Below the pieces are notes generated by a model, which did not search any database, was not told the DNA's origin, and worked only from the letters and a program-made list of their open reading frames with translations. Source: an uncultured delta proteobacterium (GTDB lineage: Bacteria; Myxococcota_A; Polyangia; Polyangiales; Houyiibacteriaceae). From it: DNA of 64,000 bases. Every line of letters begins with the position of its first letter. The stretch's first letter is position 1. The stretch lies in contig CAWFPD010000004.1 of NCBI GenBank assembly GCA_963817725.1, positions 330,425-394,424 of the forward strand, read 5' to 3'. Shown here one piece after another: positions 5,731 through 50,243 of the stretch. A program made the translations under genes and the position numbers.

Positions 5731-6459
5731 CTACCGGTGCGCGCTCCGGACGAAGTACTCGCTCATGGTGACGCTGGTGATCTTCCATAACGGAAGGAAG
5801 GCGGAGACGCTTCGCGCCATGATCGCCATGTTCTTGACGAGCTCCAGGCGGTTCCGCGCCCCATAGAAAAGAAAAGGATCCGTCATGTGCTCGGCGGACG
5901 GCCAAGACTCCTCCACGATCCCCTCGTATGGGACCGCACCGGGTGTCAGCACCTCGTCGACCACGTTGCGAACATACCGACTTCGCGGCTGCATGGCCTC
6001 GGACATCGGCCCTTGTCGATTGAACCAATGTTTCATCCACCGATCCTTCGGAATGCGTCTAGGACGCTCCAAGGGCGTAACGGAGACGACGCCGGGCGAC
6101 CTTTCGCCGTCCGGCCAGTCCCGCGCCCTGCCGTGGGGATTTCCGCCGTACTCCGTGTATAGATGCTCGGTCACTCGGTATCCTGCAAGGTCGAAGTCGG
6201 CATCGAGCAAGATTTCCTCCAGCGTGCCGCGAAGAGCTGGCTCGCCGATCCAGATGCTCACCTCGGCGATGAATGGATCGGTCATCTTCGTCGTGGGCGT
6301 CGGCGACGGCACGTCGGCGAAATCGTCGTCGATGTTCATCGCGAGATACCGGGCGCCCGCATCGAGAAGTTGGGGAGCGCAACGTTCGAGCAGCCTGGTG
6401 CGGCGCTCTGGTCGCGGCATCGGATTCCGCGGCCACAGAAGGTAAATCAGCTTGATCAT
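5731..6459 (-). CDS. Conserved hypothetical protein (possibly a tandem EthD/dimeric alpha-beta-barrel fold)
   Basis: The ATG (MIKLIYLLWPR) overlaps the upstream stop as ATGA at 6456-6459. No diagnostic catalytic motif was recognised. Coding is supported by this coupling and by its position within the operon. Confidence 0.5.
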   Translation of the reverse strand: MIKLIYLLWPRNPMPRPERRTRLLERCAPQLLDAGARYLAMNIDDDFADVPSPTPTTKMTDPFIAEVSIWIGEPALRGTLEEILLDADFDLAGYRVTEHLYTEYGGNPHGRARDWPDGERSPGVVSVTPLERPRRIPKDRWMKHWFNRQGPMSEAMQPRSRYVRNVVDEVLTPGAVPYEGIVEESWPSAEHMTDPFLFYGARNRLELVKNMAIMARSVSAFLPLWKITSVTMSEYFVRSAHR

Positions 6460-7520: not shown

Positions 7521-7567
7521 CAGTCGCTGCGGACCTTGAACCGCCATGCTAGCTTGCGCAAACACCG

Positions 7568-11746: not shown

Positions 11747-11894
11747 CTCCCTATGATTGCCCGGGCCGGCGCAACCCTGGCACGTCGGCGCTGCGCGCGC
11801 ACGAGAAAACGAGGCTGATCAGCGCGGTTTCGACAGCCATGGACGGACGCGCCGCACTTCCCTTATGCTGATTTCTCGTTCGAGGAGGTATCCG

Positions 11895-12161
11895 ATGTCC
11901 GCAGCAAAGACATTCACAGTGAACGTGAAGATCGTCGAGGAGGGCCACGCGACGGATGCAACGGCTCGCCTCACGATAGACGGCGATGAGCTAGTCGGCG
12001 TGGGCAAGGCCCGCCGCAATCCCGAAGACCCGAATCGTCCCATGATCGGAGATGAGCTTGCCATGGCACGGGCGCTGGTCGTGTTGGCGCGAAAGCTCGG
12101 CGAGAAGGTCGACGAAGGCATCGAAGCCTACGAAGGCCATGTGGTTCACGTTACGATCTAG
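11895..12161 (+). CDS. DUF1876 domain protein
   Basis: GAGGAGG lies 6 nt upstream of the ATG at 11895. The pattern TFTVNVKIVEEGHATDATARLTIDGDELVGVGKARRNPEDPNRPMIGDELAMARAL matches what I recall of DUF1876. Confidence 0.7.
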   Translation: MSAAKTFTVNVKIVEEGHATDATARLTIDGDELVGVGKARRNPEDPNRPMIGDELAMARALVVLARKLGEKVDEGIEAYEGHVVHVTI

Positions 12162-12207
12162 CCTAAATTTAGAGGGAATGCGGACTCATTGAATCGGCGT
12201 CGGGGTC

Positions 12208-12235
12208 GAACGTCTATCTCGATGAGGAGACGTTC
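12208..12235 (+). promoter_or_regulatory. Stem-loop overlapping the Shine-Dalgarno sequence of the downstream lipoprotein gene
   Basis: The arm GAACGTCT (12208-12215) is perfectly complementary to AGACGTTC (12228-12235), with a 12-nt loop. GGAG (12226-12229) lies at the junction of the loop and the 3' arm. The ATG is at 12239. Confidence 0.35.
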
Positions 12236-12238
12236 ACC

Positions 12239-12673
12239 ATGCCACTTCGACTCAATCTGCCCCTGACATGGTTTGCTGCCGCGTTTTGCGCTTCGCTTTT
12301 TTCGGGATGCATCTTCGTAGGAGACTACGAGGACTTCTACGAGCCGCAGCCGAAGTCGATCATGTACGAAACCTGCTACTCGGACGTGGACTGTTTCGCA
12401 GGCCGCTACTGCGAGGAGCTGGCACTCCCGGCCGACCGTTACACGGACTACGTCAACGCGATTTGTACGGTCGGATGCTTCGACGACCTCGATTGTCCCA
12501 TCTCCGAGTTCAATGGCCTTCCTGGAGCCTGCATCGACCACGTGCTCCTCGGCGGGCCGGTCACCTCGCGAATCTGCGTCGAGCGTTGCATCATCGATGC
12601 AGACTGCGACGTGGCGGCGGGCTTTGGTTGCGAGCTCATCGCTGGCGAGCGGCTTTGTGTGCCGATCCGCTGA
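12239..12673 (+). CDS. Cys-rich secreted lipoprotein, unknown function
   Basis: Lipobox LFSGC. Contains about a dozen Cys in DCxxxxxC-type spacing (YSDVDCFAGRYCEE, TVGCFDDLDCPI, ERCIIDADCDVAAGFGCE). Confidence 0.6.
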   Translation: MPLRLNLPLTWFAAAFCASLFSGCIFVGDYEDFYEPQPKSIMYETCYSDVDCFAGRYCEELALPADRYTDYVNAICTVGCFDDLDCPISEFNGLPGACIDHVLLGGPVTSRICVERCIIDADCDVAAGFGCELIAGERLCVPIR

Positions 12674-12731
12674 CCGAGGGACTGGACAACGACTCCACAG
12701 CGCTATGATCCTCCAAAAGAGAGGAAGCATC

Positions 12732-13391
12732 ATGGCCAAGGTCCTCATCACAGGAGCGAATCGGGGCATCGGTCTAGAGCTCGTCCGACAGCTCGCCAAG
12801 CGCGGTGACGAAGTGATCGCATTGTGCCGGAAGGCGAGCCCGGAGCTGACCAAGCAGGGTGTTCGAGTGTTCGAGGGCATTGACGTGACAGACGACGCGG
12901 CGCTCGCGACGGTATCCCGCGAGCTCGGCGACACCAAGATCGACGTTTTGATCAGCAACGCCGGGGTCATGCTCGATGAGCCGTTTCCGAACCTCGATTT
13001 CGACGGAATACGAAGGCAATTCGAGGTCAATACGCTCGGCCCCCTGTTGGTAACCTCCACCTTGCGAGACCATCTGCAGCCCGGATCCAAGGTGATTTTG
13101 ATTACGAGCCGAATGGGGTCCATCGGCGACAACGAGTCGGGCGGGTACTACGGATATCGGATGTCAAAAGCAGCGCTCAACATGGCCGGCGTCAATCTCG
13201 CTCACGATCTGAGGAGTGGGCGAATCGCCGTGGCAGTGCTGCATCCTGGGATGGTTGCGACGCGCATGACTGGCAATCATGGCATCCCGGTAGAGGAGGC
13301 GGCCGAGGGGCTCATCGCGCGCATCGACGATCTCACGCTCGCGACCTCAGGCGGGTTCTGGCACGCCAACGGCGAGCGGCTGCCATGGTGA
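12732..13391 (+). CDS. Short-chain dehydrogenase/reductase (classical SDR)
   Basis: Motifs MAKVLITGANRGIGLELVRQL, NAGV, and YGYRMSKAALN (YxxxK). Confidence 0.85.
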   Translation: MAKVLITGANRGIGLELVRQLAKRGDEVIALCRKASPELTKQGVRVFEGIDVTDDAALATVSRELGDTKIDVLISNAGVMLDEPFPNLDFDGIRRQFEVNTLGPLLVTSTLRDHLQPGSKVILITSRMGSIGDNESGGYYGYRMSKAALNMAGVNLAHDLRSGRIAVAVLHPGMVATRMTGNHGIPVEEAAEGLIARIDDLTLATSGGFWHANGERLPW

Positions 13392-13443
13392 ACCCTAAAC
13401 AATCGTTGTCGTGAGCGACTAGATCCTTCAAGCTGCACGCGTC

Positions 13444-14460
13444 GTGCCCGTCGCTTGGGAAAGCCTGCCAACCGAGGAGCTGCTGGACGTTCGACTGTCT
13501 GATCTGGGCCTGAGTCTATCGGGCACGTGGCTCGAGGATTGCACGGAACGTCTGCGCGAAGAGCTCCACGCAAGAGGGCTGCTCCATTTCCGCCTCCACA
13601 CGTGGCTGGCAGACGAGTGGTGCTCGCCAGACGGTATCCCCGGCATCGGGCTTCCGTTCTACTTGGCGCATCCACGCCTCATCCGTCTCGAGCGGCAGAT
13701 GATGTTCGAGGTCGAGGGCGGAACGCGCGCCGAGTGCATGCGACTGCTGCGCCACGAGGCGGGTCACGCCTTGCAACACGCTTACAACCTGCAACGCCGC
13801 AAGGGGTGGCAGCGCGCTTTTGGGCACGCAAGCGAGCCCTACCCCGAGTTCTACCGACCCAACCCGGTGAGCAAGAGCTTCGTCGAGCATCTGGACGGCT
13901 GGTATGCGCAAGCTCACCCCGTCGAGGACTTCGCCGAAACGTTTGCCGTCTGGCTCGCTCCGCGTTCCCAGTGGCGCAAACAATACGAGGGGTGGCCAGC
14001 GCTAAGAAAGCTGAAATACGTCGACGAGCTGGCCTCGGACCTTGCAGACAAGAAGCCTCCCGTGAAAACCCGGGCTCGGCCCTACTCTCTTTCCCAACTT
14101 CGATACACGCTACGAACCCACTACGAGCGACGCCAAGCGCACTACAGCCCAGGCTTCAGCAACGAGTACGACCGCGACCTGTTGAAGATCTTCAGCGAGT
14201 CACCCCGGTACCGGAACAACGAGACGGCCGCTTCGTTCTTGCGTCGCAATCGGCGTCAAATTCGAGAGCAAATCGCGCTCTTCACGGGCGAATATCAGTT
14301 CACCGTCGATCAGGTGCTTCGTGATATCATCGGAAGGTGCCGCGAGCTCAGGCTGCGGCTCACCAAAGGGGAGCGTCAGACGAAGCTCGACTTTGCCATC
14401 ATGTTGACGGTGCACACCGTGCACCTTCTGCACCGGCGGGACACATGGCACCCACTATAA
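13444..14460 (+). CDS. Putative zinc metallopeptidase (HExxH)
   Basis: Contains LLRHEAGHALQH (HExxH). GTG start. The 3' end overlaps the next gene by 16 nt. Confidence 0.6.
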   Translation: MPVAWESLPTEELLDVRLSDLGLSLSGTWLEDCTERLREELHARGLLHFRLHTWLADEWCSPDGIPGIGLPFYLAHPRLIRLERQMMFEVEGGTRAECMRLLRHEAGHALQHAYNLQRRKGWQRAFGHASEPYPEFYRPNPVSKSFVEHLDGWYAQAHPVEDFAETFAVWLAPRSQWRKQYEGWPALRKLKYVDELASDLADKKPPVKTRARPYSLSQLRYTLRTHYERRQAHYSPGFSNEYDRDLLKIFSESPRYRNNETAASFLRRNRRQIREQIALFTGEYQFTVDQVLRDIIGRCRELRLRLTKGERQTKLDFAIMLTVHTVHLLHRRDTWHPL

Positions 14461-20811: not shown

Positions 20812-21747
20812 TCATGCCAAGCGCTGGGTCGACTCCAAAGGACGCCTGGTGAGAGCGGCGTCCAGCTCTTCGTAGTGGTGCATCATGCGGGCAGGAAGCC
20901 GCTGGGTCGATAGAACATGCCCTTCAGGAAGGCCCAGCCAGACTTCGTGGTCTTCGGCCAGGCGTTCGATACCCGCGCCCAAGGCCTCGCGTTCGCCCGG
21001 TTCGCAATCCCGCGCGATGCTCAATATGATGAGCTCGGCGCCGCTCTGGTCAGCCGCTTCGGCGATGTCGTCAAATGGCATGTGCGTGCCCAGATAGATG
21101 GGTTCGAAGCCCCGACTCGCGGCCATGAATGCACCGATGATCGCACCGAACTCGTGCAAGTGATTCGGAGGAGTCGCCACGATCACCCGAGGCGCGCCCG
21201 ACACCGGATCGGTATGTCGCATCAGCGCGCCCAGCAAGCTTCGCAGTTGGCCCGAGATGATGTGCTCATGAGAGATCCGAAACTGGTCTGAGCTCCACGC
21301 ATCCCCGACACGGCGCATGAGTGGCACGATCACCTCGAGTGTGAGCGTCATGGCCGGCAAAATGGCTGCCGTCCGGGTCAATATCGACTCTGCGCGCTGC
21401 ACGTCGTACTCGAAAACGGCCTCTAGGTAGTCCTCCACGACGGCTGCATACAGCGAAACCTTGCTTCCGATGTCCGATCCAGTCTCTCCGATCAGCCGCC
21501 GGAGCTCATCATCGCGCAGCCGTGCGACCTGACCGATCGAATGCCCAAGCTCGGTGGCACGCCGCAAGAGGACCAATCGTTTCACCTGAGCGCCGGAGTA
21601 TCTCCGCTTGTTGCCTTCGGTTCGATCTGGCTCGACCGCGGCATATCGACGCTCCCAAACACGGATCGTATCCGCGGTCAGACCTGTGAGACGCGCCACG
21701 ACGCGCATTGGATAGAGTCCGCTCATTTCTTTGACGTTGTTGCTCAT
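20812..21747 (-). CDS. carH: MerR-family, cobalamin-binding light-sensor-type regulator (CarH/LitR-like)
   Basis: N-terminal MerR HTH (YPMRVVARLTGLTADTIRVWERRY...RRYSGAQV). Has the Wx9EH motif (W-SSDQFRISH-EH). The B12-binding domain reads VIVATPPNHLHEFGAIIG...AELIILSI. Confidence 0.75.
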   Translation of the reverse strand: MSNNVKEMSGLYPMRVVARLTGLTADTIRVWERRYAAVEPDRTEGNKRRYSGAQVKRLVLLRRATELGHSIGQVARLRDDELRRLIGETGSDIGSKVSLYAAVVEDYLEAVFEYDVQRAESILTRTAAILPAMTLTLEVIVPLMRRVGDAWSSDQFRISHEHIISGQLRSLLGALMRHTDPVSGAPRVIVATPPNHLHEFGAIIGAFMAASRGFEPIYLGTHMPFDDIAEAADQSGAELIILSIARDCEPGEREALGAGIERLAEDHEVWLGLPEGHVLSTQRLPARMMHHYEELDAALTRRPLESTQRLA

Positions 21748-21833
21748 GATTGGCCGTTGATTAGAGGTACGGAAGCGGGTACCCGTTACGCGGGATCACT
21801 CGATTCGCCTGAAGATGAATGGGGTGGTGGTGC

Positions 21834-23285
21834 TTACATCCATCTTTCGTGTTCCTGTGTTGGGTACCCGCCTCGTACCGGAAGGGTTAGGGTTCCGGCG
21901 AAGCTCGTGTCTGCGCTGCGAGACAGATGCTTGGCGAAGCGACTCATCAACCAACGGTGAAAAATCGCCTGCGAAAAAATGTAGACGAGCCAAGGCAAAC
22001 GAGGCTCGTAGTCGTGCACGACGGTCAGTAACGTCCGGCCGCCCAACACCTGACGAAGCTCGAACCGAGGCCTGCCATTGCGGCGCGAGAGAAGACCACC
22101 GGTCACGTAAAAAAGCTGTCGATCGGGGCTGCTGCGGCCCGGCGCTCGCGTCAGCTCGAGAAGAGGCGACCGGAGCGGTGTCAAAACGAAGCGGAAACGA
22201 TCGGCCGACTGGATGTCTACGCGCAACAACGACCGCAAGAAGCGCGGCAGCCACTGAAGATATTCGGACGCAGCCCGCTGGGCGGTCCAGCCTGCGGGCA
22301 ACTGCATGCGCTGCACGGACCGAACCAAGCGTTGCCTCGAGCTCGTGCCTCGGAACGCATGAGGGGCCGATCCATCGGTCTGCGCTACGGCCCGGCGGAT
22401 CGCCTCGCGAATCGGGGTGCGTTCGACGCCCAGCCGCTCCGCAAGACCATCGTCCCGAATGACCATTTCGTGCCGGAGGCTCTGAACGAGCGGCCCCACC
22501 AGCGCCCTTGGCGCGCCCGTGATCAGTGTGATCCACAGACGGGACAACCCAGGCGACATGATTCGGGAAGGAATGAACAGACGACGCTTGCCAAGTGACG
22601 AAGCCGTCATGGCCATCATCTGCTTGTAGGTCACGATATCGGGAGCTCCGATGTCGTAGACCCGATCATAGTGCTCTTCGCTGCCGATCACTCCGCCGAT
22701 CATCCGTACGACATCCTCGAGCGCGACGGGTTGCGTTCGGATGTTCGTCCAGCGCGGGCACACCATGATGGGCAGGCGCTCGACCAATCGCGCCATGATT
22801 TGGAACGAGGAGCCGCGACCGCCCAAGATGAGACCCGCCCGCAACGTGGTCACAGGCACCACGTGGCCCGCAAGCACCTTTTCCACCTCGCTGCGGCTCT
22901 GGAGGTGCTTCGATAGCTCTGCTCCCTCGGGAATCAGCCCGCCAAGAAAAATGATCTGCTTCACACCCGCAGCGGCCGCCGCTCTTGCAAAGTTGTCAGC
23001 GCACACCACGTCGAGGTCCGCGAAGTCACCCTGCGTGAACCGCGTCGAGGGCATCATGTTGTGCACGAGGTACACCGCGTACTCCGCCCCTTGCAGCGCC
23101 TGCTCGGCCTCCTTCAACGAAAACAAATCGCAGGAGCGGTACTCGTCGAAGCCGCCGCCAGGCGTCCGAACCGATCGGGACAAGCCGATCACGTGGAAGG
23201 ACTCGGCGAGCACCGGCGCAAGCGCTTGCCCCACGAACCCTGAGGCTCCAGCGATCACCACCTTGGGCCGACGCGGCTCTTTCAT
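21834..23285 (-). CDS. NAD(P)-binding SDR-like protein with a C-terminal DUF2867-like domain
   Basis: N-terminus PKVVIAGASGFVGQALAPVL. Length is about 480 aa. It is the first gene of the operon that ends with the CarH-like gene. Confidence 0.65.
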   Translation of the reverse strand: MKEPRRPKVVIAGASGFVGQALAPVLAESFHVIGLSRSVRTPGGGFDEYRSCDLFSLKEAEQALQGAEYAVYLVHNMMPSTRFTQGDFADLDVVCADNFARAAAAAGVKQIIFLGGLIPEGAELSKHLQSRSEVEKVLAGHVVPVTTLRAGLILGGRGSSFQIMARLVERLPIMVCPRWTNIRTQPVALEDVVRMIGGVIGSEEHYDRVYDIGAPDIVTYKQMMAMTASSLGKRRLFIPSRIMSPGLSRLWITLITGAPRALVGPLVQSLRHEMVIRDDGLAERLGVERTPIREAIRRAVAQTDGSAPHAFRGTSSRQRLVRSVQRMQLPAGWTAQRAASEYLQWLPRFLRSLLRVDIQSADRFRFVLTPLRSPLLELTRAPGRSSPDRQLFYVTGGLLSRRNGRPRFELRQVLGGRTLLTVVHDYEPRLPWLVYIFSQAIFHRWLMSRFAKHLSRSADTSFAGTLTLPVRGGYPTQEHERWM

Positions 23286-23287
23286 GT

Positions 23288-23320
23288 CTGTCTATATACT
23301 GTCTATATTTTTATGGTCAA
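23288..23320 (-). promoter_or_regulatory. Putative sigma-70-type promoter with two tandem 11-bp CarH-operator-like direct repeats; possibly a leaderless transcript
   Basis: The bottom strand reads TTGACC-16nt-TATATA-7nt-ATG, with the ATG at 23285. The tandem repeats AATATAGACAG and TATATAGACAG (23309-23288) both fit nAnnTnnACAn. They cover the spacer and the -10 hexamer. Confidence 0.45.
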
Positions 23321-23359
23321 TACATGGACATCTTTTCTTGTTTGCCAGAGCCCCAGAAT

Positions 23360-23389
23360 TGAAACATGTTCTAGTGAAACATGTTCTAG
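23360..23389 (+). repeat. Perfect 15-bp tandem direct repeat (TGAAACATGTTCTAG x2) upstream of the Rieske oxygenase operon
   Basis: Read directly: unit 1 at 23360-23374, unit 2 at 23375-23389. Each unit contains the palindrome AACATGTT. The repeat lies 49-78 nt upstream of the ATG at 23438. Confidence 0.85.
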
Positions 23390-23437
23390 TTTGGCGGTCC
23401 GTACTCGAATGGCCGCCCGACCAGAAGGAGCTCCCTC

Positions 23438-24412
23438 ATGACGGACGATGCGAAGACGAACCCCTGGGCAGGCTTTGCCAGAGGCTGGTTCGTGTTGATG
23501 TTCTCGGACGAGTTGGCAGCTGGCCAGGTGGTGCCGATGAAGCGCTTCGGCCAAGAGCTCGTCTTGTTTCGCACCGAGGCGGGACAAGCCAAAGTGTTCG
23601 ACGCCTACTGCCCCCACATGGGCGCGCATCTCGGACACGGAGGCAAGGTCCGAGGCGAGGCCATCGTCTGTCCGTTCCACGCTTGGAAGTTCGACGGAAC
23701 GGGCAAGTGCGTCGAGATTCCGTATGCAAAGCGCATCCCACCCAAGGCAGCCGTGGCGTGTTGGCCGGTGCGCGAGCGCAACGGGATGATCTTCGTCTGG
23801 CACGATCGGGAAAAGAGCCAGCCCGACTGGGAGATCCCCGAGCTCGAAGAGTGGGACGATCCGGCGTTCCTTTCCTGGCGGTATGCCAAGCTCGAGATCA
23901 AGACGCCGCCGCTAGCCATTGCGGAGAATTTGGCGGACGCGGGCCACTTCATTCCGGTCCACAATACGCATCCTGTTCCTGGCTCCTTCAGCAACACCTA
24001 TCAGGGCCACGTCGGGCAACAGAAGATCAAGGCGGTCGCGTACCCGGTGCACGGCGGCAAGGACGAGTTTGAGTCCACCGCGACTTACTACGGGCCTGGA
24101 TATCAAGTCACGAAGATGCACGGAAAGGGCCTGGGTGTGATCATCAATGCCCACACGCCGATCGACGACGAGCGCGTCATGCTGCGATTTGGGGTGTCGA
24201 TGAAGGCAACCAAGGACATGACGGAAGAGCTCATCGATCATTTCATCGACAACATGCGCGATGGATACCTCCAAGATGTCCGCATTTGGGAGAACAAGAT
24301 CTATCTCGATCGGCCGATTCTGTGCGACGGTGACGGGCCCATCGGCGAGTTTCGCCGGTGGTACGCCCAGTTCTATGCTCCGCGCCGGGAAGCTGCCGAC
24401 GCGGCGGAGTAA
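23438..24412 (+). CDS. Rieske [2Fe-2S] oxygenase, KshA-like (3-ketosteroid 9-alpha-hydroxylase oxygenase family)
   Basis: Rieske motif CPHMGAHLGHGG...CPFHAWKFDGTGKC, then IPYAKRIPPKA. The C-terminal GYLQDVRIWENKIYLDRPILCDGDGPIGEFRRWYAQFY closely parallels the KshA sequence as I recall it. GGAG RBS. Confidence 0.8.
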   Translation: MTDDAKTNPWAGFARGWFVLMFSDELAAGQVVPMKRFGQELVLFRTEAGQAKVFDAYCPHMGAHLGHGGKVRGEAIVCPFHAWKFDGTGKCVEIPYAKRIPPKAAVACWPVRERNGMIFVWHDREKSQPDWEIPELEEWDDPAFLSWRYAKLEIKTPPLAIAENLADAGHFIPVHNTHPVPGSFSNTYQGHVGQQKIKAVAYPVHGGKDEFESTATYYGPGYQVTKMHGKGLGVIINAHTPIDDERVMLRFGVSMKATKDMTEELIDHFIDNMRDGYLQDVRIWENKIYLDRPILCDGDGPIGEFRRWYAQFYAPRREAADAAE

Positions 24413-24424
24413 CGGGAGCGTTGC

Positions 24425-25381
24425 ATGGGCAGACCGACGACTTCCTCGCCTGAGCGACCCGTAGCCTCCGGCGTCCATAGCTTGGGATATTTTCTCTTCG
24501 AGGTGTCGGATCTCGACGCGTGGGATCGCTTCTTGACGAAGGTAGTCGGCGTCGAGCGGGGTGCAGAGCTAGGTGAGGGGCTGATTCCGTATCGAACCGA
24601 CGAGCGCGCTGCGCGAATCCTGCTGCAAGAGGGTCCAGCCGACGACTTGATCGCTTTGGGCTTCGAGATGACCAGTGAACCCGCCTTGCACGGTCTTGCA
24701 GAACGCATTCGAGAGGCAGGTCATCCGGTCGCGACGCTTTCGAGCGAGCAGGCAAAGGCGCGGGGCGTCTCAGGCTCGTTCCGCACAGTCGAGCCCGGCG
24801 GAGTCGCCATCGAGCTCTGCCACGGGCCGTTGGCCGCCGACACGCCGTTCCAACGAAAATTGGTCAAGGCGGGTTTCATCACGGGAGAGCAAGGCATCGG
24901 CCATCTCGCGCTTCGCGCTGATGACGTCGCGCGGACTCGGTCGTATTTCGAGGAGTTGCTGAGCTTTAGCCTGAGCGACCAGATCCGCTGCACCCTCCCC
25001 GGCAACTTCGAGGTGGATGTCACGTTTCTACACGTCAATCCTCGGCATCACACGGTGGCGCTCGGCTCGGGGATTCCAAAGCACCTTCATCACTTCATGC
25101 TGCAGATGAGCTCGCTCGACGACGTGGGGGCTGCGCTCGACCGGGCGTTCAGCCACGAGGTGAGGATCGTTCAGGGACTGGGCCGGCACCCCAACGATCA
25201 GATGGTGAGCTTTTACTGTGTCACGCCTTCAGGCTTCGAATGCGAGCTCGGCTGGGGCGGACGCACCGTGGACGAGTCCAGGTGGAACCCGGTGACATAT
25301 GACCGAATCAGCGATTGGGGCCACCAGTCTCCGTACCGAAGGCCGCCGAAGCAAAAAGTCGAAATGGGAGAACGAACATGA
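24425..25381 (+). CDS. Type I extradiol ring-cleavage dioxygenase (BphC/HsaC-like, VOC superfamily)
   Basis: Shows SLGYFLFEVSDLDAWDRFL...GEQGIGHLALR...FLHVNPRHHTVAL...HLHHFMLQMSSLDDVG...GRHPNDQMVSFY. This is collinear with 2,3-dihydroxybiphenyl 1,2-dioxygenases. Confidence 0.85.
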   Translation: MGRPTTSSPERPVASGVHSLGYFLFEVSDLDAWDRFLTKVVGVERGAELGEGLIPYRTDERAARILLQEGPADDLIALGFEMTSEPALHGLAERIREAGHPVATLSSEQAKARGVSGSFRTVEPGGVAIELCHGPLAADTPFQRKLVKAGFITGEQGIGHLALRADDVARTRSYFEELLSFSLSDQIRCTLPGNFEVDVTFLHVNPRHHTVALGSGIPKHLHHFMLQMSSLDDVGAALDRAFSHEVRIVQGLGRHPNDQMVSFYCVTPSGFECELGWGGRTVDESRWNPVTYDRISDWGHQSPYRRPPKQKVEMGERT

Positions 25382-26421
25382 GTAACAAACCGCGATTTCC
25401 AATCCCCCGTTACCCGAGAGGATGGTTCCAGGTGGCGTACGCGGACGAGCTGAAGCCCGGGGACGTCATGCCGCTACGGTACTTCGGCGTCGACCTCGTC
25501 ATGTTCCGGACCGACGACGGTCAGGTGAACGTTCTCGATGCATTTTGCCCTCACATGGGCGCGCATCTAGGCCACGGGGGCAAAGTCGAAGGCGATGGAA
25601 TCGTCTGCCCGTTCCATGCATGGAAGTTCGATGGATCGGGCCGATGTACTCACGTTCCCTACGCCAAGCATCTTCCTCGCAAGGCCAACGTCACGGCCTG
25701 GCCGTCGCAGGAGGTCAACGGCGTCATCATGGTCTGGCACGACATCGAAGGCAGGGAGCCTGAGTGGGAGATCCCGGCGATCCCAGAATGGAACAACGAA
25801 GCGTGGACCCCATATTGGCGGCAGCGCTGGAAGCTGCGTACGCACAATCAAGACATGTGCGAGAACGTGGTCGACAAAGCCCACTTTCGATACGTGCATG
25901 GCATGAACATCGTCCCGCAACCGCACACCATCAAGCTCGAATACCCGCACATCAACATGATCACCGACACGGTGTACGAAACCCCGCAGGGCGTGGTGAA
26001 GGGCGAGCTCGACGTCGAGGTGCATGGCTTTGGCTTCTCGGTGAGCCGCTTCCGTGGCATCATCGAGACCACGAACATGGCTTCCGTCACGCCCATCGAT
26101 GACGAATACTGCGACGTGCGGTTTTCATTCACCGTCAAGAAGATCGGTGGCGCCGACATCACGGCTGGAGTCGGCAAGGCGTTCACCAAAGAGATCGCGC
26201 GGCAGCTCGAGGAGGACGCGCCAGTCTGGGAAAACAAGGCCTTTTTCGAGCATCCCATGCTGTGCGACGGGGACGGCCCGATCGCCGAATTTCGCAAGTG
26301 GTGTAAGCACTTCTACCCGGACTGGTACCACAAGCAGGCGCAAGACGAGTATGATGGGCTCAAGGAGGTCAGCAAGCCACCCACATTGGCCGAGCGGCGC
26401 AGGCGGCTTGCCGCAGCATAG
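25378..26421 (+). CDS. Rieske [2Fe-2S] oxygenase, second KshA-like paralogue
   Basis: The ATG overlaps the upstream stop (ATGA at 25378-25381). Motifs CPHMGAHLGHGGKVEGDGIVCPFHAWKFDGSGRC and CDGDGPIAEFRKWCKHFY. Confidence 0.8.
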   Translation: MSNKPRFPIPRYPRGWFQVAYADELKPGDVMPLRYFGVDLVMFRTDDGQVNVLDAFCPHMGAHLGHGGKVEGDGIVCPFHAWKFDGSGRCTHVPYAKHLPRKANVTAWPSQEVNGVIMVWHDIEGREPEWEIPAIPEWNNEAWTPYWRQRWKLRTHNQDMCENVVDKAHFRYVHGMNIVPQPHTIKLEYPHINMITDTVYETPQGVVKGELDVEVHGFGFSVSRFRGIIETTNMASVTPIDDEYCDVRFSFTVKKIGGADITAGVGKAFTKEIARQLEEDAPVWENKAFFEHPMLCDGDGPIAEFRKWCKHFYPDWYHKQAQDEYDGLKEVSKPPTLAERRRRLAAA

Positions 26422-26859
26422 ATGGAAAGCAGGATCGATACTCGAAGCTCCGCCGGGCTGGAGGAGATCAGCGCGCGAATCAGAAGCGAGCACGCCCAGA
26501 TCTCTGCGCTGGTCGCGCGCGTAGAAGCCCTGACCGAGCGCCTAGGAACGGCCGAGGACGAGGGCAAGACCATCATCGCGCTTCGGGAAGAGCTCCAAAG
26601 GCTCGGGACGGCCTTGCTCGAGCATCTGCACTATGAGGAATACCAACTGCCCACCTTGGCGACGGGCGGGGAGACCGGACAGGTGGCCGAAGACATGCGT
26701 CGCGAGCATCGAGCTCAGCGGGAGCTCTTCGACCGCGTGATCCAGGAGCTCGATGAGACGGCCGTCGGTGCCAAGCTCGTCGTCGGAGTGCGCGAGCTGG
26801 CGCGCGCCATCCGCGACGACATGGATCACGAAGAACGGCAGCTACTCGGCAACAGTTGA
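26422..26859 (+). CDS. Hemerythrin-like (HHE cation-binding) domain protein
   Basis: His/Glu pairs spaced as in a hemerythrin four-helix bundle (RSEHAQI, LEHLHYEE, RREHRAQ, DMDHEE). It starts immediately after the upstream TAG. Confidence 0.55.
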   Translation: MESRIDTRSSAGLEEISARIRSEHAQISALVARVEALTERLGTAEDEGKTIIALREELQRLGTALLEHLHYEEYQLPTLATGGETGQVAEDMRREHRAQRELFDRVIQELDETAVGAKLVVGVRELARAIRDDMDHEERQLLGNS

Positions 26860-26873
26860 ACTGGAGGGAAGTC

Positions 26874-27068
26874 ATGAAGCTCATGTACAACGCAGCCACG
26901 TGCAACCACTATGGCGTGTGCATCGAGGAAGCCCCCGAGGTCTTCTCGTTCGCCGAGGATGGGAGCCTCTTGATTCAAACATACGCCGTGCCGCCAGACC
27001 TCGAAGACAAGGTGCGGGACGCTTGCATGATGTGCCCCACCCAGTCGATCCAGATCGAAGATGAGTGA
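26874..27068 (+). CDS. Small single-cluster ferredoxin (3Fe-4S/4Fe-4S type)
   Basis: GGAGGGA RBS. Has a C-x5-C ... C-x2-CP pattern (CNHYGVC ... ACMMCP), as in small actinobacterial-type ferredoxins. Confidence 0.7.
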   Translation: MKLMYNAATCNHYGVCIEEAPEVFSFAEDGSLLIQTYAVPPDLEDKVRDACMMCPTQSIQIEDE

Positions 27069-27083
27069 ACGCGCGGGCCTCGG

Positions 27084-28613
27084 TTAGATTCGGCTCAAGA
27101 GCTTGCCGGTGAGCATGCGGGACGCCGCGATGATGGGCGTCATCGTGTGGCTGGAAGCGCTAGTCGGGAAACCGGAGGAATCGAAGACGTACACATCACG
27201 GGTGCCGAAGACGCAGCCGTCCAGATCGGCCCCTCCTTCCCGCTCGTCCGCGGCGAAGCGCACCGTGCCTTGCTGGTGGGCGCTGATCAAAGGAGCGGTC
27301 GCGGGCTCGAAGGTGAGCTCTCGAGCCCGCTTCGCCTCCGCTGCCGAGCGGATGACCAACGGCGGCAAGGTCGGGACTAGAACCTCCCGTGCGCCAGCCT
27401 CCAAATAGATCCGCGCGGTGCTCTCGACGGCACGACGAAGCCGCTCCTGATGGTCGCGTCGTTGCTCGTATCGAATCGTGAGACGGCCATCACCAGATAC
27501 CTGAACCCGCCCGGATGGCGCATCGGGGACGAGTAACAGCGACGCAGCCATGTGGTCGTACTGCGCCATTCCACGCATCGCCTCGGGGCCGGAGAAAGGG
27601 AGGAGGGTCGAGACGATCCCAGGCGTGCCCATGATGCCCTCGATGCGGTAACCCCAGAGCCCGAACTCGGGGTTGTCCTCTTGTTCGAACTCGGTCACCG
27701 CGTAAGACTGGGGGATCCCATCGAACGCGGCGATGCGTTCATCGAAGATGCCGATGACCGGCAACTGCGGTTGGAGCGTGAGGTTGCGGCCCACGTGCTC
27801 GTTTCCGATCCCCGAGCGCAGCAGCAGCTGGGCGGAGGCGATTGCGTTCGCCGCGACGACGACGACCTTGGCGCGGACCTTGAGCGCTTTGCCCTCGTGG
27901 TAGCCTTTAGGATCGAGTGTTCGGACCTCGATCTCCTTGATCTCCTTGTCGGCCTTGCCGATTTTGACCGCCCGCGACCTCGTGTAGATGCGCGTGCCTG
28001 CGGCGAGGGCTTTGGGCAGGGCCACCATCCGCGGGTTGCGCTTGGCTTGAATGGGACAGCCGATCAGGCACGTTCCGAGGCCCTGACAACCGACTCGGTT
28101 GTGGCGCATCACCTCACCACGCAGCCCGAGCGCGGCAGCGCCCTGACGAAGCTTGTCGTTGGCTGCGTTGACCATGCTTGCCGGAATGCGGCTGGCAGAA
28201 AGATCTCCGAGCGCATCCTCTTGGAATGGGCGAAAGCGCTCCGGCGCGAAGTCTTCCAAACCGTACTTGCTGGCCCAGTGATGGAGCACCGCATCTGGCG
28301 ATGGGACGACATCGCAGGCATTGATCACGCCTCCCCCGCCCAGCACCCTTCCCTGCAGGACACTGACCGAAAGGTCGTGTGTCGCTCTTCCGCCGCGATC
28401 CATGTAGAGCTGGTCGTACATCGCCCGGTCGCGCTGGGTGCGCTCGGGTCCGATCAGGTCCCGACCCTCCTCCAACACGACGACCTCGTGTCCGGCTTCG
28501 CTCAAGAGACGCGCCGCCGTCGCACCCCCGCAACCCGAGCCAATGATGCAGATCTCGGTCGAAACCGAGCCGGGCACAGACTGCTTGGACAAGTCGACGA
28601 CCGCCCCGCTCAT
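27084..28613 (-). CDS. GMC-family FAD oxidoreductase, second copy
   Basis: Motifs ICIIGSGCGGATAARLLSEAGHEVVVLEEG and the C-terminal VYVFDSSGFPTSASSHTMTPI. The ATG overlaps the upstream stop (28610-28613). Confidence 0.85.
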   Translation of the reverse strand: MSGAVVDLSKQSVPGSVSTEICIIGSGCGGATAARLLSEAGHEVVVLEEGRDLIGPERTQRDRAMYDQLYMDRGGRATHDLSVSVLQGRVLGGGGVINACDVVPSPDAVLHHWASKYGLEDFAPERFRPFQEDALGDLSASRIPASMVNAANDKLRQGAAALGLRGEVMRHNRVGCQGLGTCLIGCPIQAKRNPRMVALPKALAAGTRIYTRSRAVKIGKADKEIKEIEVRTLDPKGYHEGKALKVRAKVVVVAANAIASAQLLLRSGIGNEHVGRNLTLQPQLPVIGIFDERIAAFDGIPQSYAVTEFEQEDNPEFGLWGYRIEGIMGTPGIVSTLLPFSGPEAMRGMAQYDHMAASLLLVPDAPSGRVQVSGDGRLTIRYEQRRDHQERLRRAVESTARIYLEAGAREVLVPTLPPLVIRSAAEAKRARELTFEPATAPLISAHQQGTVRFAADEREGGADLDGCVFGTRDVYVFDSSGFPTSASSHTMTPIIAASRMLTGKLLSRI

Positions 28614-29185
28614 CGCGCGACTCTCCCTGGGCGGGTCAACGACGGCCCTGGGTACCCGATGTACGGCCACACCTGCTCGTGGTCGAAGTAGACCAAGTTG
28701 AAGAATTTCCGCATGGCGATGCTGACCTGCCGCCTCACCAACTTGTCACTGAGCGCCCACTCGCTCCAATGTTGCGCACGTTCGTCGGGCGCCAACCGCG
28801 AAAAGGTCGTGAGCCTTCCGTCGAACACCAAGGGACCGAACTCGATCAAAACGAGCGCCTTTTGTAGATCCTCGACATTGTGCTTGGGCTCATCGGCAAG
28901 AAAGACGTCGAAGGCGCGTGGTAGGTCCATCGAAGCCGGATCGATCGGGATCGCATCGGTCGAAGGCAACATCACCTCCACGAGGCTTTGAAGCGTCCGG
29001 TACTCGTGCGCGTCGAGCACGCGAAGGCCATCGACGGCGGGCGCACGCCCACGAAGCACCAGCAGTCCGCCACCACCCACGCCCAAGATCGCCCCACCCG
29101 CCACCAGGCTCGCCTTGAGGAAGCGGCGCCGCGAAAGAAAGCTGAAAAGACCCTCCCGTGTGGCTTCGCTCGGAGTGTCCATCAT
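28610..29185 (-). CDS. Tat-signal small subunit, second copy
   Basis: Twin-arginine signal SRRRFLKASLVAGGAILG. The ATG overlaps the upstream stop (29182-29185). Confidence 0.7.
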   Translation of the reverse strand: MMDTPSEATREGLFSFLSRRRFLKASLVAGGAILGVGGGGLLVLRGRAPAVDGLRVLDAHEYRTLQSLVEVMLPSTDAIPIDPASMDLPRAFDVFLADEPKHNVEDLQKALVLIEFGPLVFDGRLTTFSRLAPDERAQHWSEWALSDKLVRRQVSIAMRKFFNLVYFDHEQVWPYIGYPGPSLTRPGRVAR

Positions 29186-49127: not shown

Positions 49128-49129
49128 AC

Positions 49130-50242: not shown

Positions 50243-50243
50243 C

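What the first reader, a model, noticed from the sequence alone, without database searches (positions are those of the whole stretch)
23438..27068. Unusual five-gene oxygenase operon: two KshA-like Rieske oxygenases flanking a BphC/HsaC-like extradiol dioxygenase, plus hemerythrin-like protein and ferredoxin
Both Rieske proteins align by eye along their length with 3-ketosteroid 9-alpha-hydroxylase (KshA), including the C-terminal ...LQDV.IWE.K....P.L...DG....R.WY.QFY block. The middle gene is a textbook type I extradiol dioxygenase. The genes are ATGA-coupled or separated by no more than 14 nt. The canonical partners are all absent from the operon: KshB reductase, HsaAB hydroxylase and HsaD hydrolase. 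Instead there is a small 3Fe/4Fe ferredoxin and a hemerythrin-like protein. With the KstD-like/3beta-HSD-like genes (6456-9256) and AMACR-like/APH-like genes (48051-50242) in the same window, a dispersed, non-canonical steroid or polycyclic ring-opening pathway is plausible. It is possibly light-controlled. This is unproven.
Basis: partly seen in the sequence, partly recalled or inferred. Interest (0 to 1): 0.7.

Follow-up and report, generated by a model that had tools for sequence, protein, structure and literature searches.

The report
Steroid ring-opening operon in uncultured myxobacterium
This five-gene operon from an uncultured marine myxobacterium most likely opens steroid rings, because its promoter carries two copies of the operator of the mycobacterial cholesterol repressor KstR; it points to sterol degradation in a phylum not known for it.

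Summary
The five genes are real and tightly coupled: Rieske oxygenase RO1, extradiol dioxygenase (EDO), Rieske oxygenase RO2, hemerythrin, and a small ferredoxin.

- **Operator.** Two tandem KstR-type operators (TGAAACATGTTCTA; motif TnnAACnnGTTnnA) lie 50-78 nt upstream of RO1. They are the only two matches in the 64 kb window and are conserved in about 38 related loci.
- **hsaA.** Sister lineages carry an HsaA-like gene between RO1 and EDO. The window keeps a roughly 30-nt relic of its 3' end, now used as the EDO start.
- **Wider regulon.** More distant RO1/RO2 relatives in Myxococcota sit in clusters with KstR-like, P450, FadD, EchA19-like, Ltp, KstD-like and HsaA/EDO/HsaD genes, behind the same operator.
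- **The two oxygenases.** RO1 groups with true KshAs and keeps much of their pocket. RO2 belongs to a separate clade with a different pocket.

Not supported: the "KstD/3beta-HSD/AMACR" context elsewhere in the window, and light control of the operon. The CarH-type repeats belong to the divergent promoter. The ferredoxin, the hemerythrin, the lack of a reductase and the host phylum are the unusual parts.

Verdict: a new variant of a known kind, with no biochemical test.

The parts
23342..23347 (+). Putative -35 hexamer (TTGCCA) of the RO1 operon promoter. This is inferred, not shown.
   Evidence: 'cTTGCC' is conserved at a fixed distance upstream of the operator pair in about 27 related loci. 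The simple sigma-70 scan found no canonical promoter, so the assignment rests on inference only.
23360..23373 (.). KstR-type operator box 1 (TGAAACATGTTCTA)
   Evidence: It matches TnnAACnnGTTnnA perfectly. The window holds only 2 matches against 0.29 expected. The motif and the near-identical M. tuberculosis cyp125/fadA5 site TGAAACGTGTTCTA are described in PMC1995591. The box is conserved upstream of RO1 in about 38 loci.
23375..23388 (.). KstR-type operator box 2 (TGAAACATGTTCTA), 15 bp from box 1 and 50 nt upstream of the RO1 ATG
   Evidence: The same motif precedes RO, P450, FadD, KstD-like, KstR-like and ALDH genes in distant Myxococcota loci. It also precedes a second hsaA operon in a MAG of the same clade.
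23438..24412 (+). RO1: a KshA-type Rieske oxygenase and the candidate steroid 9alpha-hydroxylase
   Evidence: Pfam gives Rieske plus KshA_C at 180 bits, and the best KshA structure scores 225 bits. All Rieske and Fe ligands are kept. At KshA pocket positions 176/204/232/238/240/257/301/308 RO1 has L,Q,Y,Q,T,N,Y,W. It groups with actinobacterial and proteobacterial KshAs at 91% bootstrap.
24425..24455 (+). Relic of the 3' end of a deleted hsaA gene, now forming the first ~10 codons of EDO
   Evidence: A DNA alignment with the hsaA end and EDO start of L005 and L041 shows that ATGGGCAGACCGACGACTTCCTCGCCTGAGC is homologous to the ...LMGEQTTDFFL* tail of HsaA. Intact hsaA lies between RO1 and EDO in sister loci.
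24425..25381 (+). EDO: a type I extradiol (meta-cleavage) dioxygenase, functionally HsaC-like
   Evidence: Pfam finds BphC_D1 plus Glyoxalase. The BphC model scores 280 bits and the HsaC model 197 bits, both below their cut-offs. The Fe and catalytic His/His/Glu/His/Tyr align with BphC 1han. Homologues at 42-52% identity sit between hsaA and hsaD in other Myxococcota, and they show the same BphC>HsaC score pattern.
25378..26421 (+). RO2: a divergent KshA_C-family Rieske oxygenase whose substrate position is unknown
   Evidence: KshA_C scores 137 bits and the best KshA structure 187 bits. The metal ligands are intact, but the pocket reads V,N,V,S,S,A,L,W. It belongs to a separate clade with 84% bootstrap. 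RO2-type genes lie directly downstream of KstR-like genes in 27 of about 80 loci.
26422..26859 (+). Hemerythrin-like (HHE) di-iron protein
   Evidence: PF01814 scores 43 bits against a cut-off of 25. There are weak hits to the RIC/YtfE Fe-S repair models. No solved relative was found by sequence. It follows RO2 in about 31 loci of this clade only.
26874..27068 (+). Small single-cluster ferredoxin with a CxxYxxC...CP motif (3Fe-4S type predicted)
   Evidence: Fer4_13 and Fer4_15 match. In the alignment to the 4Fe-4S ferredoxin 1iqz the second Cys is replaced by Tyr, and other hits are P450-associated ferredoxins. Homologues occur in 13 KstR-like loci, in one of them directly after an RO2-type gene (L113).
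23288..23331 (-). Neighbouring element, not part of the operon. CarH-type operator candidates: two tandem 11-bp repeats (23288-23298 and 23299-23309, minus strand) and one inverted copy (23321-23331, plus strand). They flank a TTGACC -35 (23314-23319, minus strand) of the divergent operon.
   Evidence: The sequence is. Each copy fits nAnnTnnACAn, the consensus given in PMC8156234. The repeats are conserved wherever the 483-aa gene and the MerR-B12 gene are adjacent.
20812..23285 (-). Neighbouring divergent operon: a 483-aa NAD-binding (epimerase-like) protein (21834-23285) and a CarH-like MerR/B12 regulator (20812-21747)
   Evidence: Pfam finds MerR_1 plus B12-binding_2. The NCBIfam CarH model scores 131 bits, below its cut-off of 400. 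T. thermophilus CarH scores 95 bits, with Wx9EH and the lower axial His aligned.

Best explanation
The operon is a steroid ring A/B oxygenase module. It belongs to a KstR-type (TetR repressor) regulon in an uncultured marine Polyangiales-like myxobacterium.

**Shown**
- Two KstR-type operators sit in its promoter.
- Both Rieske proteins and the extradiol dioxygenase have intact metal sites.
- hsaA was recently deleted from between RO1 and EDO.
- Relatives of every gene except the hemerythrin occur in other Myxococcota in clusters that look like actinobacterial cholesterol catabolism and carry the same operator.

**Inferred mechanism**
1. A KstR-like repressor encoded elsewhere in the genome is released by a steroid-CoA intermediate.
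2. RO1 hydroxylates C9alpha of a 3-keto-1,4-diene steroid. Ring B then opens and ring A aromatises to a phenol.
3. An HsaA encoded elsewhere makes the catechol. A second hsaA locus of this kind is seen in a MAG of the same clade.
4. EDO meta-cleaves ring A. HsaD and HsaEFG, also encoded elsewhere, finish the job.
5. RO2 hydroxylates a steroid at another position, possibly on side-chain-bearing intermediates.
6. The 3Fe-4S-type ferredoxin carries electrons from an unidentified reductase to one or both oxygenases. That would make a three-component system instead of KshA/KshB.
7. The hemerythrin binds O2 or protects the iron centres under the low or fluctuating oxygen of sediments.
For: **Operator**
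- Two perfect TnnAACnnGTTnnA sites are the only ones in 64 kb, against 0.29 expected.
- The motif definition and near-identical M. tuberculosis sites come from PMC1995591.
- The sites are conserved at the RO1 promoter, and essentially nowhere else, in about 38 related loci.
- The same motif lies upstream of RO, P450, FadD, KstD-like, KstR-like and ALDH genes in distant loci.

**Regulator**
- The best solved match of the myxobacterial TetR is M. tuberculosis KstR (78 bits, full length), with a near-identical recognition helix.
- The NCBIfam KstR model is its top hit at 127 bits.

**Partner genes**
- HsaA-like scores 415 bits (cut-off 450).
- EchA19-like scores 337 bits; the enoyl-CoA hydratase model PRK07799 passes its cut-off at 353.
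- The lipid-transfer-protein model PRK07937 (505) and the acyl-CoA synthetase model PRK07798 (693) pass their cut-offs.
- HsaD-like scores 206 and KstD-like 305 (all).

**Same clade, second locus**
- L205 comes from the same MAG as L020. It has hsaA-hsaE-hsaG-hsaF-fadE-fadE-SDR behind a perfect TAGAACACGTTCTA box.

**The oxygenases**
- Ligands and pocket residues.
- Trees.

**hsaA relic**.

**EDO orthology by context**.

**RO2-ferredoxin adjacency in another lineage**.

**Precedent in Sphingobium sp. Chol11** (bioRxiv 10.1101/2021.06.24.449856)
- A divergent KshA homologue hydroxylates at a position other than C9 and is linked to side-chain degradation.
- KshA homologues there also lack a cognate KshB.
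Against: - There is no biochemical or expression evidence.
- No KstR-like gene, reductase, HsaB, HsaD or KstD was found in the window or in the flanks of close relatives. Completeness of the pathway in this genome is therefore unproven. My scans for KstR-like genes did not reach this clade.
- The operon content varies among close relatives: with or without hsaA, and with or without EDO. EDO and HsaA are therefore dispensable here or duplicated elsewhere.
- EDO scores higher on the BphC model than on the HsaC model and passes neither cut-off.
- RO1 is only about 36% identical to characterised KshAs, and 4 of its 8 pocket residues differ.
- The roles given to RO2, the ferredoxin and the hemerythrin are inference only.
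Confidence: 0.7

Rival explanations
1. The operon degrades a non-steroid aromatic or polycyclic compound, such as biphenyl or PAH-like compounds, diterpenoids, or lignin-derived biaryls. Rieske oxygenases would make or modify a catechol, and a BphC-type dioxygenase would cleave it.
For: EDO scores best on the BphC model (280 against 197 bits) and on BphC structures (226 against 155 bits). From my own knowledge, Rieske oxygenases served by 3Fe-4S/4Fe-4S-type ferredoxins are known from aromatic and diterpenoid degradation. No other steroid gene lies in the window.
Against: - The BphC>HsaC score pattern is shared by dioxygenases that sit between hsaA and hsaD in clear steroid-type clusters, so it does not discriminate.
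- The promoter carries KstR-type boxes.
- The deleted gene was an HsaA near-equivalog.
- RO1 groups with KshAs, not with aromatic ring-hydroxylating enzymes, whose solved structures score at most about 87 bits.
Confidence: 0.1
2. The operon is a light- or oxidative-stress-linked module. It would modify endogenous sterols or other lipids, for example by a Neverland-like desaturation or hydroxylation, under control of the adjacent CarH-like B12 photoreceptor, rather than serving catabolism.
For: - A CarH-like regulator with Wx9EH and the axial His lies next to the operon in at least 23 related loci, even where the intervening gene differs.
- Three nAnnTnnACAn sites lie 11-54 bp upstream of the putative RO1 -35.
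- A hemerythrin could serve oxidative-stress functions.
- From my own knowledge, the KshA_C family includes eukaryotic cholesterol 7-desaturases.
Against: - The CarH-type repeats overlap the -35 and spacer of the divergent promoter, not the RO1 promoter.
- Close relatives that lack the adjacent regulator keep the KstR boxes.
- The synteny with the CarH-like gene is confined to one clade.
- The same operator in the same clade controls hsaA-hsaEFG, which is a catabolic lower pathway.
- The B12-binding motif of the regulator deviates from the CarH definition: HxHxxG, SxA and GL in place of ExHxxG, SxV/T and GG (sequence compared).
Confidence: 0.1
3. The operon is an eroding remnant of a steroid cluster. 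It is no longer a working pathway in this organism, and the genes persist for a reduced or different role.
For: - hsaA has been deleted, leaving a relic.
- Close relatives have lost EDO, hsaA or both in different combinations.
- One complete chromosome (CP070713.1) shows only RO1 plus a truncated hsaA match at this site.
- No hydrolase or reductase is nearby.
Against: - All five ORFs are intact with complete metal ligands.
- RO1, RO2 and the ferredoxin are 85-97% identical in protein across lineages whose intergenic DNA has diverged.
- The operator pair is strictly conserved.
- A MAG of the same clade keeps further KstR-boxed catabolic genes.
Confidence: 0.08

Closest known systems
KshA/KshB 3-ketosteroid 9alpha-hydroxylase of Mycobacterium and Rhodococcus (class IA Rieske monooxygenase)
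   Same: RO1 and RO2 have the Rieske plus KshA_C architecture and all cofactor ligands. RO1 keeps Q204, Y232, N257 and W308 of the KshA pocket. It clusters with actinobacterial and proteobacterial KshAs.
   Different: - Identity to characterised KshAs is about 36% for RO1 and 31% for RO2.
- Both proteins are shorter (324 and 347 aa against about 390).
- RO2 has a different pocket and lies in a separate clade.
- There is no KshB. The operon encodes instead a small 3Fe-4S-type ferredoxin, and the KSH review states that no ferredoxin has been detected for KSH.
hsaA-hsaC-hsaD (and hsaB, hsaEFG) ring-A degradation genes of the 9,10-seco pathway
   Same: The order RO1-hsaA-EDO in sister loci, and [RO1]-hsaA-EDO-hsaD in other Myxococcota, mirrors hsaACD. 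The HsaA homologue scores 415 bits on the HsaA equivalog model and 311 bits against RHA1 HsaA.
   Different: In the window hsaA is deleted. HsaD and HsaB are absent from the operon. EDO passes neither the HsaC nor the BphC equivalog cut-off. RO2, the hemerythrin and the ferredoxin occupy the place where hsaD normally follows.
KstR regulon of Mycobacterium tuberculosis and M. smegmatis (Kendall et al. 2007, PMC1995591)
   Same: The 14-bp operator is identical in form: TnnAACnnGTTnnA, with TAGAAC/TGAAAC half-sites. Sites occur in tandem in promoters, as at M. tuberculosis hsaA/kshB. The regulon content matches too: cyp, fadD, fadE, echA, ltp, kstD, hsa and ksh-like genes.
   Different: The host phylum is Myxococcota. 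Genome and metagenome surveys found steroid degraders only in Actinobacteria and Proteobacteria. The repressor is only KstR-like: 127 bits against a cut-off of 280, and 78 bits to the KstR structure. It was not found in this window or clade.
Divergent KshA homologue Nov2c228 and the KshB-less KshA homologues of Sphingobium sp. Chol11 (bioRxiv 10.1101/2021.06.24.449856)
   Same: There is one deep-branching KshA-like oxygenase beside KshA-proper paralogues. It is linked to side-chain degradation genes and there is no dedicated reductase. The RO2 clade includes a Novosphingobium member (L219_20338, 39% identity) that is separate from that genome's KshA-proper genes.
   Different: The reaction of Nov2c228 is also unknown.
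CarH (AdoCbl-dependent light sensor/repressor) of Thermus thermophilus and Myxococcus xanthus
   Same: The neighbouring regulator has MerR and B12-binding domains, Wx9EH and the axial His. Its promoter carries 11-bp nAnnTnnACAn repeats.
   Different: It is below the NCBIfam CarH cut-off (131 against 400). The B12 motif deviates. Only two repeats are tandem and a third is inverted. The sites belong to the divergent promoter, not to the oxygenase operon.

Membership tests
KshA (3-ketosteroid 9alpha-hydroxylase oxygenase) | Rieske CxH...CxxH plus a KshA_C catalytic domain, with the Fe ligands His181, His186 and Asp304 and the bridging Asp178 | tested here: met
   Both RO1 and RO2 meet this. Pfam is above the cut-offs, and all eight ligand positions are conserved in the alignment with M. 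tuberculosis KshA. Residue numbering was checked against PMC4064121.
KshA (3-ketosteroid 9alpha-hydroxylase oxygenase) | Substrate-pocket residues V176, Q204, Y232, M238, N240, N257, F301, W308 | tested here: inconclusive
   RO1 has L,Q,Y,Q,T,N,Y,W: four identical, with V-to-L and F-to-Y as conservative changes. Q, Y, N and W are invariant in 44 RO1-type sequences. RO2 has V,N,V,S,S,A,L,W, with two identical, so RO2 does not meet this feature.
KshA (3-ketosteroid 9alpha-hydroxylase oxygenase) | Phylogenetic placement with characterised KshAs | tested here: inconclusive
   Neighbour-joining trees with 100 bootstraps place RO1-type sequences with actinobacterial KshAs and proteobacterial KshA-like proteins at 91%. 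The RO2-type forms a separate clade at 84%. RO1 therefore meets the feature and RO2 does not.
KshA (3-ketosteroid 9alpha-hydroxylase oxygenase) | Two-component system with a KshB reductase (FAD plus plant-type 2Fe-2S) | tested here: not met
   No such gene is in the operon or the window. A small ferredoxin is encoded instead. The rest of the genome could not be searched.
KshA (3-ketosteroid 9alpha-hydroxylase oxygenase) | 9alpha-hydroxylation of 3-ketosteroids | not testable with these tools
   This needs an enzyme assay.
HsaC / type I extradiol dioxygenase | Two-domain vicinal oxygen chelate fold with the 2-His-1-Glu Fe site and catalytic His and Tyr | tested here: met
   BphC_D1 plus Glyoxalase. 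The GHxA, RHHT, HHFM and SFY...E positions align with BphC 1han.
HsaC / type I extradiol dioxygenase | NCBIfam equivalog score (HsaC 450; BphC 366) | tested here: not met
   HsaC scores 197 bits and BphC 280 bits. Dioxygenases in genuine hsaA-EDO-hsaD contexts also fail both cut-offs, with the same ranking.
HsaC / type I extradiol dioxygenase | Genomic position next to hsaA (and hsaD) | tested here: inconclusive
   The hsaA relic abuts EDO in the window, and intact hsaA precedes EDO in sister loci. hsaD is absent in this clade's operon but follows the homologous EDO in other Myxococcota.
KstR regulon | Operator TnnAACnnGTTnnA in the promoter region | tested here: met
   Two sites lie 50-78 nt upstream of RO1 and are the only ones in 64 kb. 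The motif is defined in PMC1995591. The sites are conserved in about 38 loci.
KstR regulon | A KstR (TetR-family) repressor in the genome | tested here: inconclusive
   None was found in the window or in the flanks of close relatives. KstR-like genes are abundant in other Myxococcota MAGs: 210 relatives were found, and the best solved match is KstR. The scans did not reach this clade, and the full genome is not available here.
KstR regulon | Other steroid-catabolic genes behind the same operator in the same lineage | tested here: met
   L205 comes from the same MAG as L020, whose RO1 is 88% identical to the window's. It has TAGAACACGTTCTA 55 nt upstream of hsaA-hsaE-hsaG-hsaF-fadE-fadE-SDR.
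CarH-type B12 photoreceptor (neighbouring regulator) | Wx9EH motif plus ExHxxG...SxV/T...GG B12-binding motif (PMC8156234) | tested here: inconclusive
   Wx9EH and the axial His align with T. thermophilus CarH. The B12 motif reads HxHxxG-x41-SxA and GL instead of GG (sequence). The NCBIfam CarH model scores 131 bits against a cut-off of 400.
CarH-type B12 photoreceptor (neighbouring regulator) | Operator of 3-4 tandem 11-bp repeats nAnnTnnACAn controlling the target promoter | tested here: inconclusive
   There are two tandem copies and one inverted copy at 23288-23331. They overlap the divergent promoter, not the RO1 promoter.
Hemerythrin (HHE cation-binding domain) | Four-helix HHE domain with His/Glu di-iron ligands | tested here: met
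   PF01814 scores 43 bits, above its cut-off of 25. H23, H67/H69/E70, H95 and H134/E135 are visible in the sequence. O2 binding is not testable here.
Single-cluster 3Fe-4S/4Fe-4S ferredoxin | CxxXxxC...CP cluster motif | tested here: met
   CNHYGVC...CP is present, with Tyr where 4Fe-4S ferredoxins have the second Cys (alignment to 1iqz). Cluster type and redox partner are not testable here.

The most novel reading that the evidence does not exclude
Uncultured sediment and soil Myxococcota would be an overlooked guild of aerobic sterol degraders. They would use an actinobacterial-type KstR regulon with new enzymology:
- a second deep-branching clade of KshA_C Rieske oxygenases (RO2-type, the commonest neighbour of the KstR-like gene) that hydroxylates steroids at a position other than C9;
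- electron supply from a 3Fe-4S ferredoxin rather than KshB;
- in this clade, a dedicated hemerythrin that supplies or buffers O2, or repairs the iron centres, so that an oxygenase pathway can run at very low oxygen.
Probability: 0.35. Interest if true: 0.72.

Novelty: new variant of a known kind. Interest (0 to 1): 0.6.

Why it matters
Sterols are among the most abundant and persistent eukaryotic lipids in sediments. Large genome and metagenome surveys found the aerobic 9,10-seco pathway only in Actinobacteria and Proteobacteria (PMC4810484, PMC5790920).

If the reading is correct, it would have three consequences:
- It adds a phylum, and many uncultured marine, freshwater and soil lineages, to the steroid degraders.
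- It shows that the KstR operator and repressor pair is shared across phyla. The operator then becomes a usable genomic marker for finding regulon members.
- It points to untested biochemistry: a Rieske steroid oxygenase clade of unknown regiochemistry, ferredoxin-dependent KshA-type enzymes, and a hemerythrin tied to an oxygenase operon. Steroid-hydroxylating Rieske enzymes also have biocatalytic value.

Tried and rejected
- **Steroid context elsewhere in the window: rejected.** The 7568-9256 protein is a PRK07121.1-4 FAD-binding protein, not KstD. The 6456-7586 protein scores best on OleD or HpnA. The APH-like gene has no NCBIfam match. None has a KstR box.
- **Search of the window for other pathway genes: negative.** tblastn with 15 representative steroid-cluster proteins gave only one weak KstD-like hit at 23% identity. 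A profile built from 12 KstR-like proteins found nothing in the window or in the 46 closest loci.
- **Attempts to find the clade's KstR gene: unsuccessful.** Two genome scans, one with a single protein and one with an alignment, returned other Myxococcota only. Only the best 80 of 210 hits are listed, so this clade may have been cut off.
- **SdmA (bacterial sterol C4-demethylase) identity for RO1/RO2: rejected.** Only the Rieske domain matches, at 70-82 bits against a cut-off of 600.
- **The tandem 15-bp repeat as a CarH operator: rejected.** Its spacing and sequence fit KstR, not the 11-bp CarH repeat.
- **The BphC>HsaC score as evidence against a steroid role: rejected as non-discriminating**.
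- **Canonical sigma-70 promoter scan of 23200-27200:** found nothing, so the promoter positions are inferred from conservation only.
- **Solved relatives of the hemerythrin:** none found by sequence.
- **Literature on steroid degradation or KstR in Myxococcota or Deltaproteobacteria:** searches found nothing relevant.

Full report
**What is there**

The region 23438-27068 holds five co-directional, tightly coupled genes:
- RO1, 23438-24412
- EDO, 24425-25381
- RO2, 25378-26421
- a hemerythrin-like protein, 26422-26859
- a 64-aa ferredoxin, 26874-27068

The junctions are TAA, 12 nt, ATG; an ATGA overlap; TAGATG; and TGA, 14 nt, ATG. The best solved relatives of both Rieske proteins are KshA structures, at 225 and 187 bits over the full length. 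For EDO they are BphC at 226 bits and M. tuberculosis HsaC at 155 bits.

The window comes from an uncultured Myxococcota lineage. Identical genes occur on a 470-kb ENA contig and in GCA_049288685.1. The nearest genome records are titled 'Myxococcales bacterium SG8_38', Polyangiales and Sandaracinaceae MAGs.

**The promoter**

The 152-bp region between the operon and a divergent gene holds two kinds of repeat.

The first is a pair of TGAAACATGTTCTA copies at 15-bp pitch (23360-23373 and 23375-23388), 50-78 nt upstream of the RO1 start.
- Each copy is a perfect match to TnnAACnnGTTnnA. This is the operator of KstR, the TetR-family repressor of cholesterol catabolism in mycobacteria.
- A proven M. 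tuberculosis site in front of cyp125/fadA5 reads TGAAACGTGTTCTA. The hsaA/kshB intergenic region there also has two copies (PMC1995591).
- These are the only two matches in the 64-kb window, against 0.29 expected.
- The pair is conserved at the same place in essentially every related locus that includes the RO1 upstream region (about 38 loci). It occurs almost nowhere else in those 8-17-kb loci.

The second kind of repeat belongs to the other promoter and is described under 'Light control' below.

**Relatives show what the operon was**

In lineages whose RO1 is 84-91% identical, the cluster is modular: RO1-[X]-[EDO]-RO2-hemerythrin-ferredoxin. All four combinations of X and EDO occur.

X is a 393-aa flavin monooxygenase. 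It scores 311 bits against HsaA of R. jostii RHA1 and 415 bits on the HsaA equivalog model, whose cut-off is 450.

A DNA alignment shows that the window still carries the last ~30 nt of that gene. ATGGGCAGACCGACGACTTCC... is homologous to the ...LMGEQTTDFFL* tail of hsaA. A 1-nt change has shifted its frame, and its internal ATG now serves as the EDO start. The 'missing HsaA' is therefore a recent deletion, not an ancestral feature.

**The wider family**

More distant homologues of RO1 and RO2 (42-57% identity) occur in Kofleriaceae, Polyangiaceae, Nannocystaceae, Bradymonadia and other MAGs. They lie in clusters with the following genes:
- a cytochrome P450
- an acyl-CoA synthetase (PRK07798, passes its cut-off)
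- paired acyl-CoA dehydrogenases
- an EchA19-like hydratase
- a lipid-transfer-protein-type thiolase (PRK07937, passes its cut-off) together with a 321-aa protein that I took by eye for a DUF35-type protein; it had no NCBIfam match
- KstD-like flavoproteins
- HsaA, EDO and an HsaD-like hydrolase
- a TetR regulator whose top NCBIfam hit is KstR

The best solved match of that TetR is M. tuberculosis KstR, aligned over its full length with an almost identical recognition helix. The KstR-type box precedes the RO, P450, FadD, KstD-like, ALDH and TetR genes in those loci, often in tandem.

A scan with an alignment of these TetRs found 210 relatives. In the 80 loci returned, an RO2-type gene directly follows the regulator in 27.

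A scan with HsaA showed that the usual myxobacterial arrangement is [RO1-type]-hsaA-EDO-hsaD. It also pulled in known steroid-degrading Proteobacteria at similar identity.

One hit, L205, comes from the same MAG as L020, which is a close relative of the window with RO1 88% identical. L205 carries hsaA-hsaE-hsaG-hsaF-fadE-fadE-SDR behind a perfect TAGAACACGTTCTA box. The window's clade therefore does have a dispersed regulon of this type.

**The two oxygenases are not equivalent**

Both keep every Rieske and mononuclear-iron ligand. The eight pocket residues of M. tuberculosis KshA were taken from PMC4064121.
- RO1 has L,Q,Y,Q,T,N,Y,W. Q204, Y232, N257 and W308 are invariant in 44 RO1-type sequences.
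- RO2 has V,N,V,S,S,A,L,W. The RO2-type clade as a whole lacks Q204, Y232, N257 and F301.

In neighbour-joining trees, RO1-type sequences group with actinobacterial KshAs and with KshA-like proteins of proteobacterial steroid clusters (91% bootstrap). RO2-type sequences form a separate clade (84%) that includes a Novosphingobium member.

This resembles Sphingobium sp. Chol11. There, one divergent KshA homologue hydroxylates at an unknown position other than C9 and is tied to side-chain degradation, and no cognate KshB serves the KshA homologues.

I therefore read RO1 as the 9alpha-hydroxylase candidate. RO2 is a second steroid oxygenase of unknown regiochemistry.

**EDO**

Its active-site residues align with BphC. 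It scores higher on the BphC model than on the actinobacterial HsaC model. So do the dioxygenases that sit between hsaA and hsaD in other Myxococcota and in a sphingomonad. The ranking therefore says nothing against a steroid catechol as substrate.

**Ferredoxin, hemerythrin, reductase**

The ferredoxin has CxxYxxC...CP, with Tyr in place of the second Cys of 4Fe-4S ferredoxins, so it is predicted to be of the 3Fe-4S type. Its weak solved relatives include P450-associated ferredoxins. Homologues occur in 13 KstR-like loci, in one of them directly after an RO2-type gene.

KSH is described as a two-component system for which no ferredoxin has been detected. This is therefore a real difference from KSH. 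No reductase is encoded nearby.

The hemerythrin passes the Pfam cut-off. It is confined to this clade's operon. Its role, whether O2 buffering or delivery, or protection and repair of the iron centres, is inference only.

**Light control**

The neighbouring regulator aligns with T. thermophilus CarH, including Wx9EH and the axial His. It is below the CarH equivalog cut-off, and its B12 motif deviates from the published definition.

Three sequences fit the CarH repeat nAnnTnnACAn. Two are tandem on the minus strand (23288-23309) and one is inverted (23321-23331). They flank a TTGACC -35 of the divergent 483-aa-protein/CarH-like operon, and they are conserved wherever that operon is adjacent.

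These sites fit autoregulation of the divergent operon. Nothing ties them to the RO1 promoter, and relatives without the adjacent regulator keep the KstR boxes.

**Other window context**

The rest of the window holds unrelated functions and no further box.

**Verdict**

The steroid interpretation is supported by independent regulatory, comparative and phylogenetic evidence, but not by any experiment.

The kind of system is known: KstR-controlled 9,10-seco steroid catabolism. The variant is new in four respects:
- the host phylum, since the surveys found degraders only in Actinobacteria and Proteobacteria;
- the second oxygenase clade;
- the ferredoxin in place of KshB;
- the hemerythrin.

Confidence in the overall assignment is about 0.7. 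Confidence in the individual roles of RO2, the ferredoxin and the hemerythrin is much lower.

Noticed in passing
window 20812-23331: A divergent operon encodes a 483-aa NAD-binding (epimerase-like) protein and a CarH-like MerR/B12 regulator. Three nAnnTnnACAn repeats flank its own TTGACC -35. It looks like a light-responsive autoregulated unit, and the function of the 483-aa protein is unknown.
   Followed up: partly
L005:7800-7870, L006, L007, L041, L043, L010, L008, L018 (between the two divergent promoters): Many close relatives carry one or two GCGCA-N5-6-TGCGC palindromes in a ~100-bp segment upstream of the RO1 promoter. The window lacks this segment. It is probably the site of a further, unidentified regulator.
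   Followed up: no
L011 and L031 (contigs CAVOVB010000007.1 and CAVOVB010000001.1 of one MAG): The same MAG carries two paralogous copies of the operon, each with its own CarH-like neighbour and KstR boxes. One copy has hsaA. In the other, a fasciclin-like gene takes the place of the 483-aa gene.
   Followed up: partly
window 27084-29185 and 3494-5718: There are two pairs of a GMC flavoprotein oxidoreductase and a small TAT-signal subunit. One pair is convergent with the operon and is syntenic in most close relatives. Similarity to cholesterol oxidase is weak (51-72 bits), and there is no KstR box.
   Followed up: partly
L173 / L008 (CP070713.1, complete 3.5-Mb chromosome): At this site only RO1 and a truncated hsaA match (residues 1-269) are found, with the operator pair. 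RO2, the hemerythrin and the ferredoxin are not within 8-10 kb. This could be real erosion or masked sequence.
   Followed up: no
L121:~10000-14000, L107, L114, L128 (KstR-like loci): Homologues of the small ferredoxin follow a ~390-aa thiolase-like (Ltp-type) ORF in L107, L114 and L128, and an unidentified 423-aa ORF in L121. The same ferredoxin type may therefore serve other enzymes in the myxobacterial regulon as well as the Rieske oxygenases.
   Followed up: no
window 49941-51374, 54527-55960, 57625-60278: Other genes seen in the window are an Rv3169-family protein (358 bits), a wax-ester synthase/DGAT (426 bits) and two large multihaem c-type cytochromes. None is linked to the operon.
   Followed up: no
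L139, L167, L170 (Candidatus Binatia), L184 (Dadabacteria), L204 (Pseudobdellovibrionaceae), L104/L106 (Spirochaetales-labelled MAGs): KstR-like, RO2-type or hsaA-EDO-hsaD genes also turn up in MAGs assigned to other little-studied phyla. Steroid-type clusters may be spread more widely, or the binning may be wrong.
   Followed up: no
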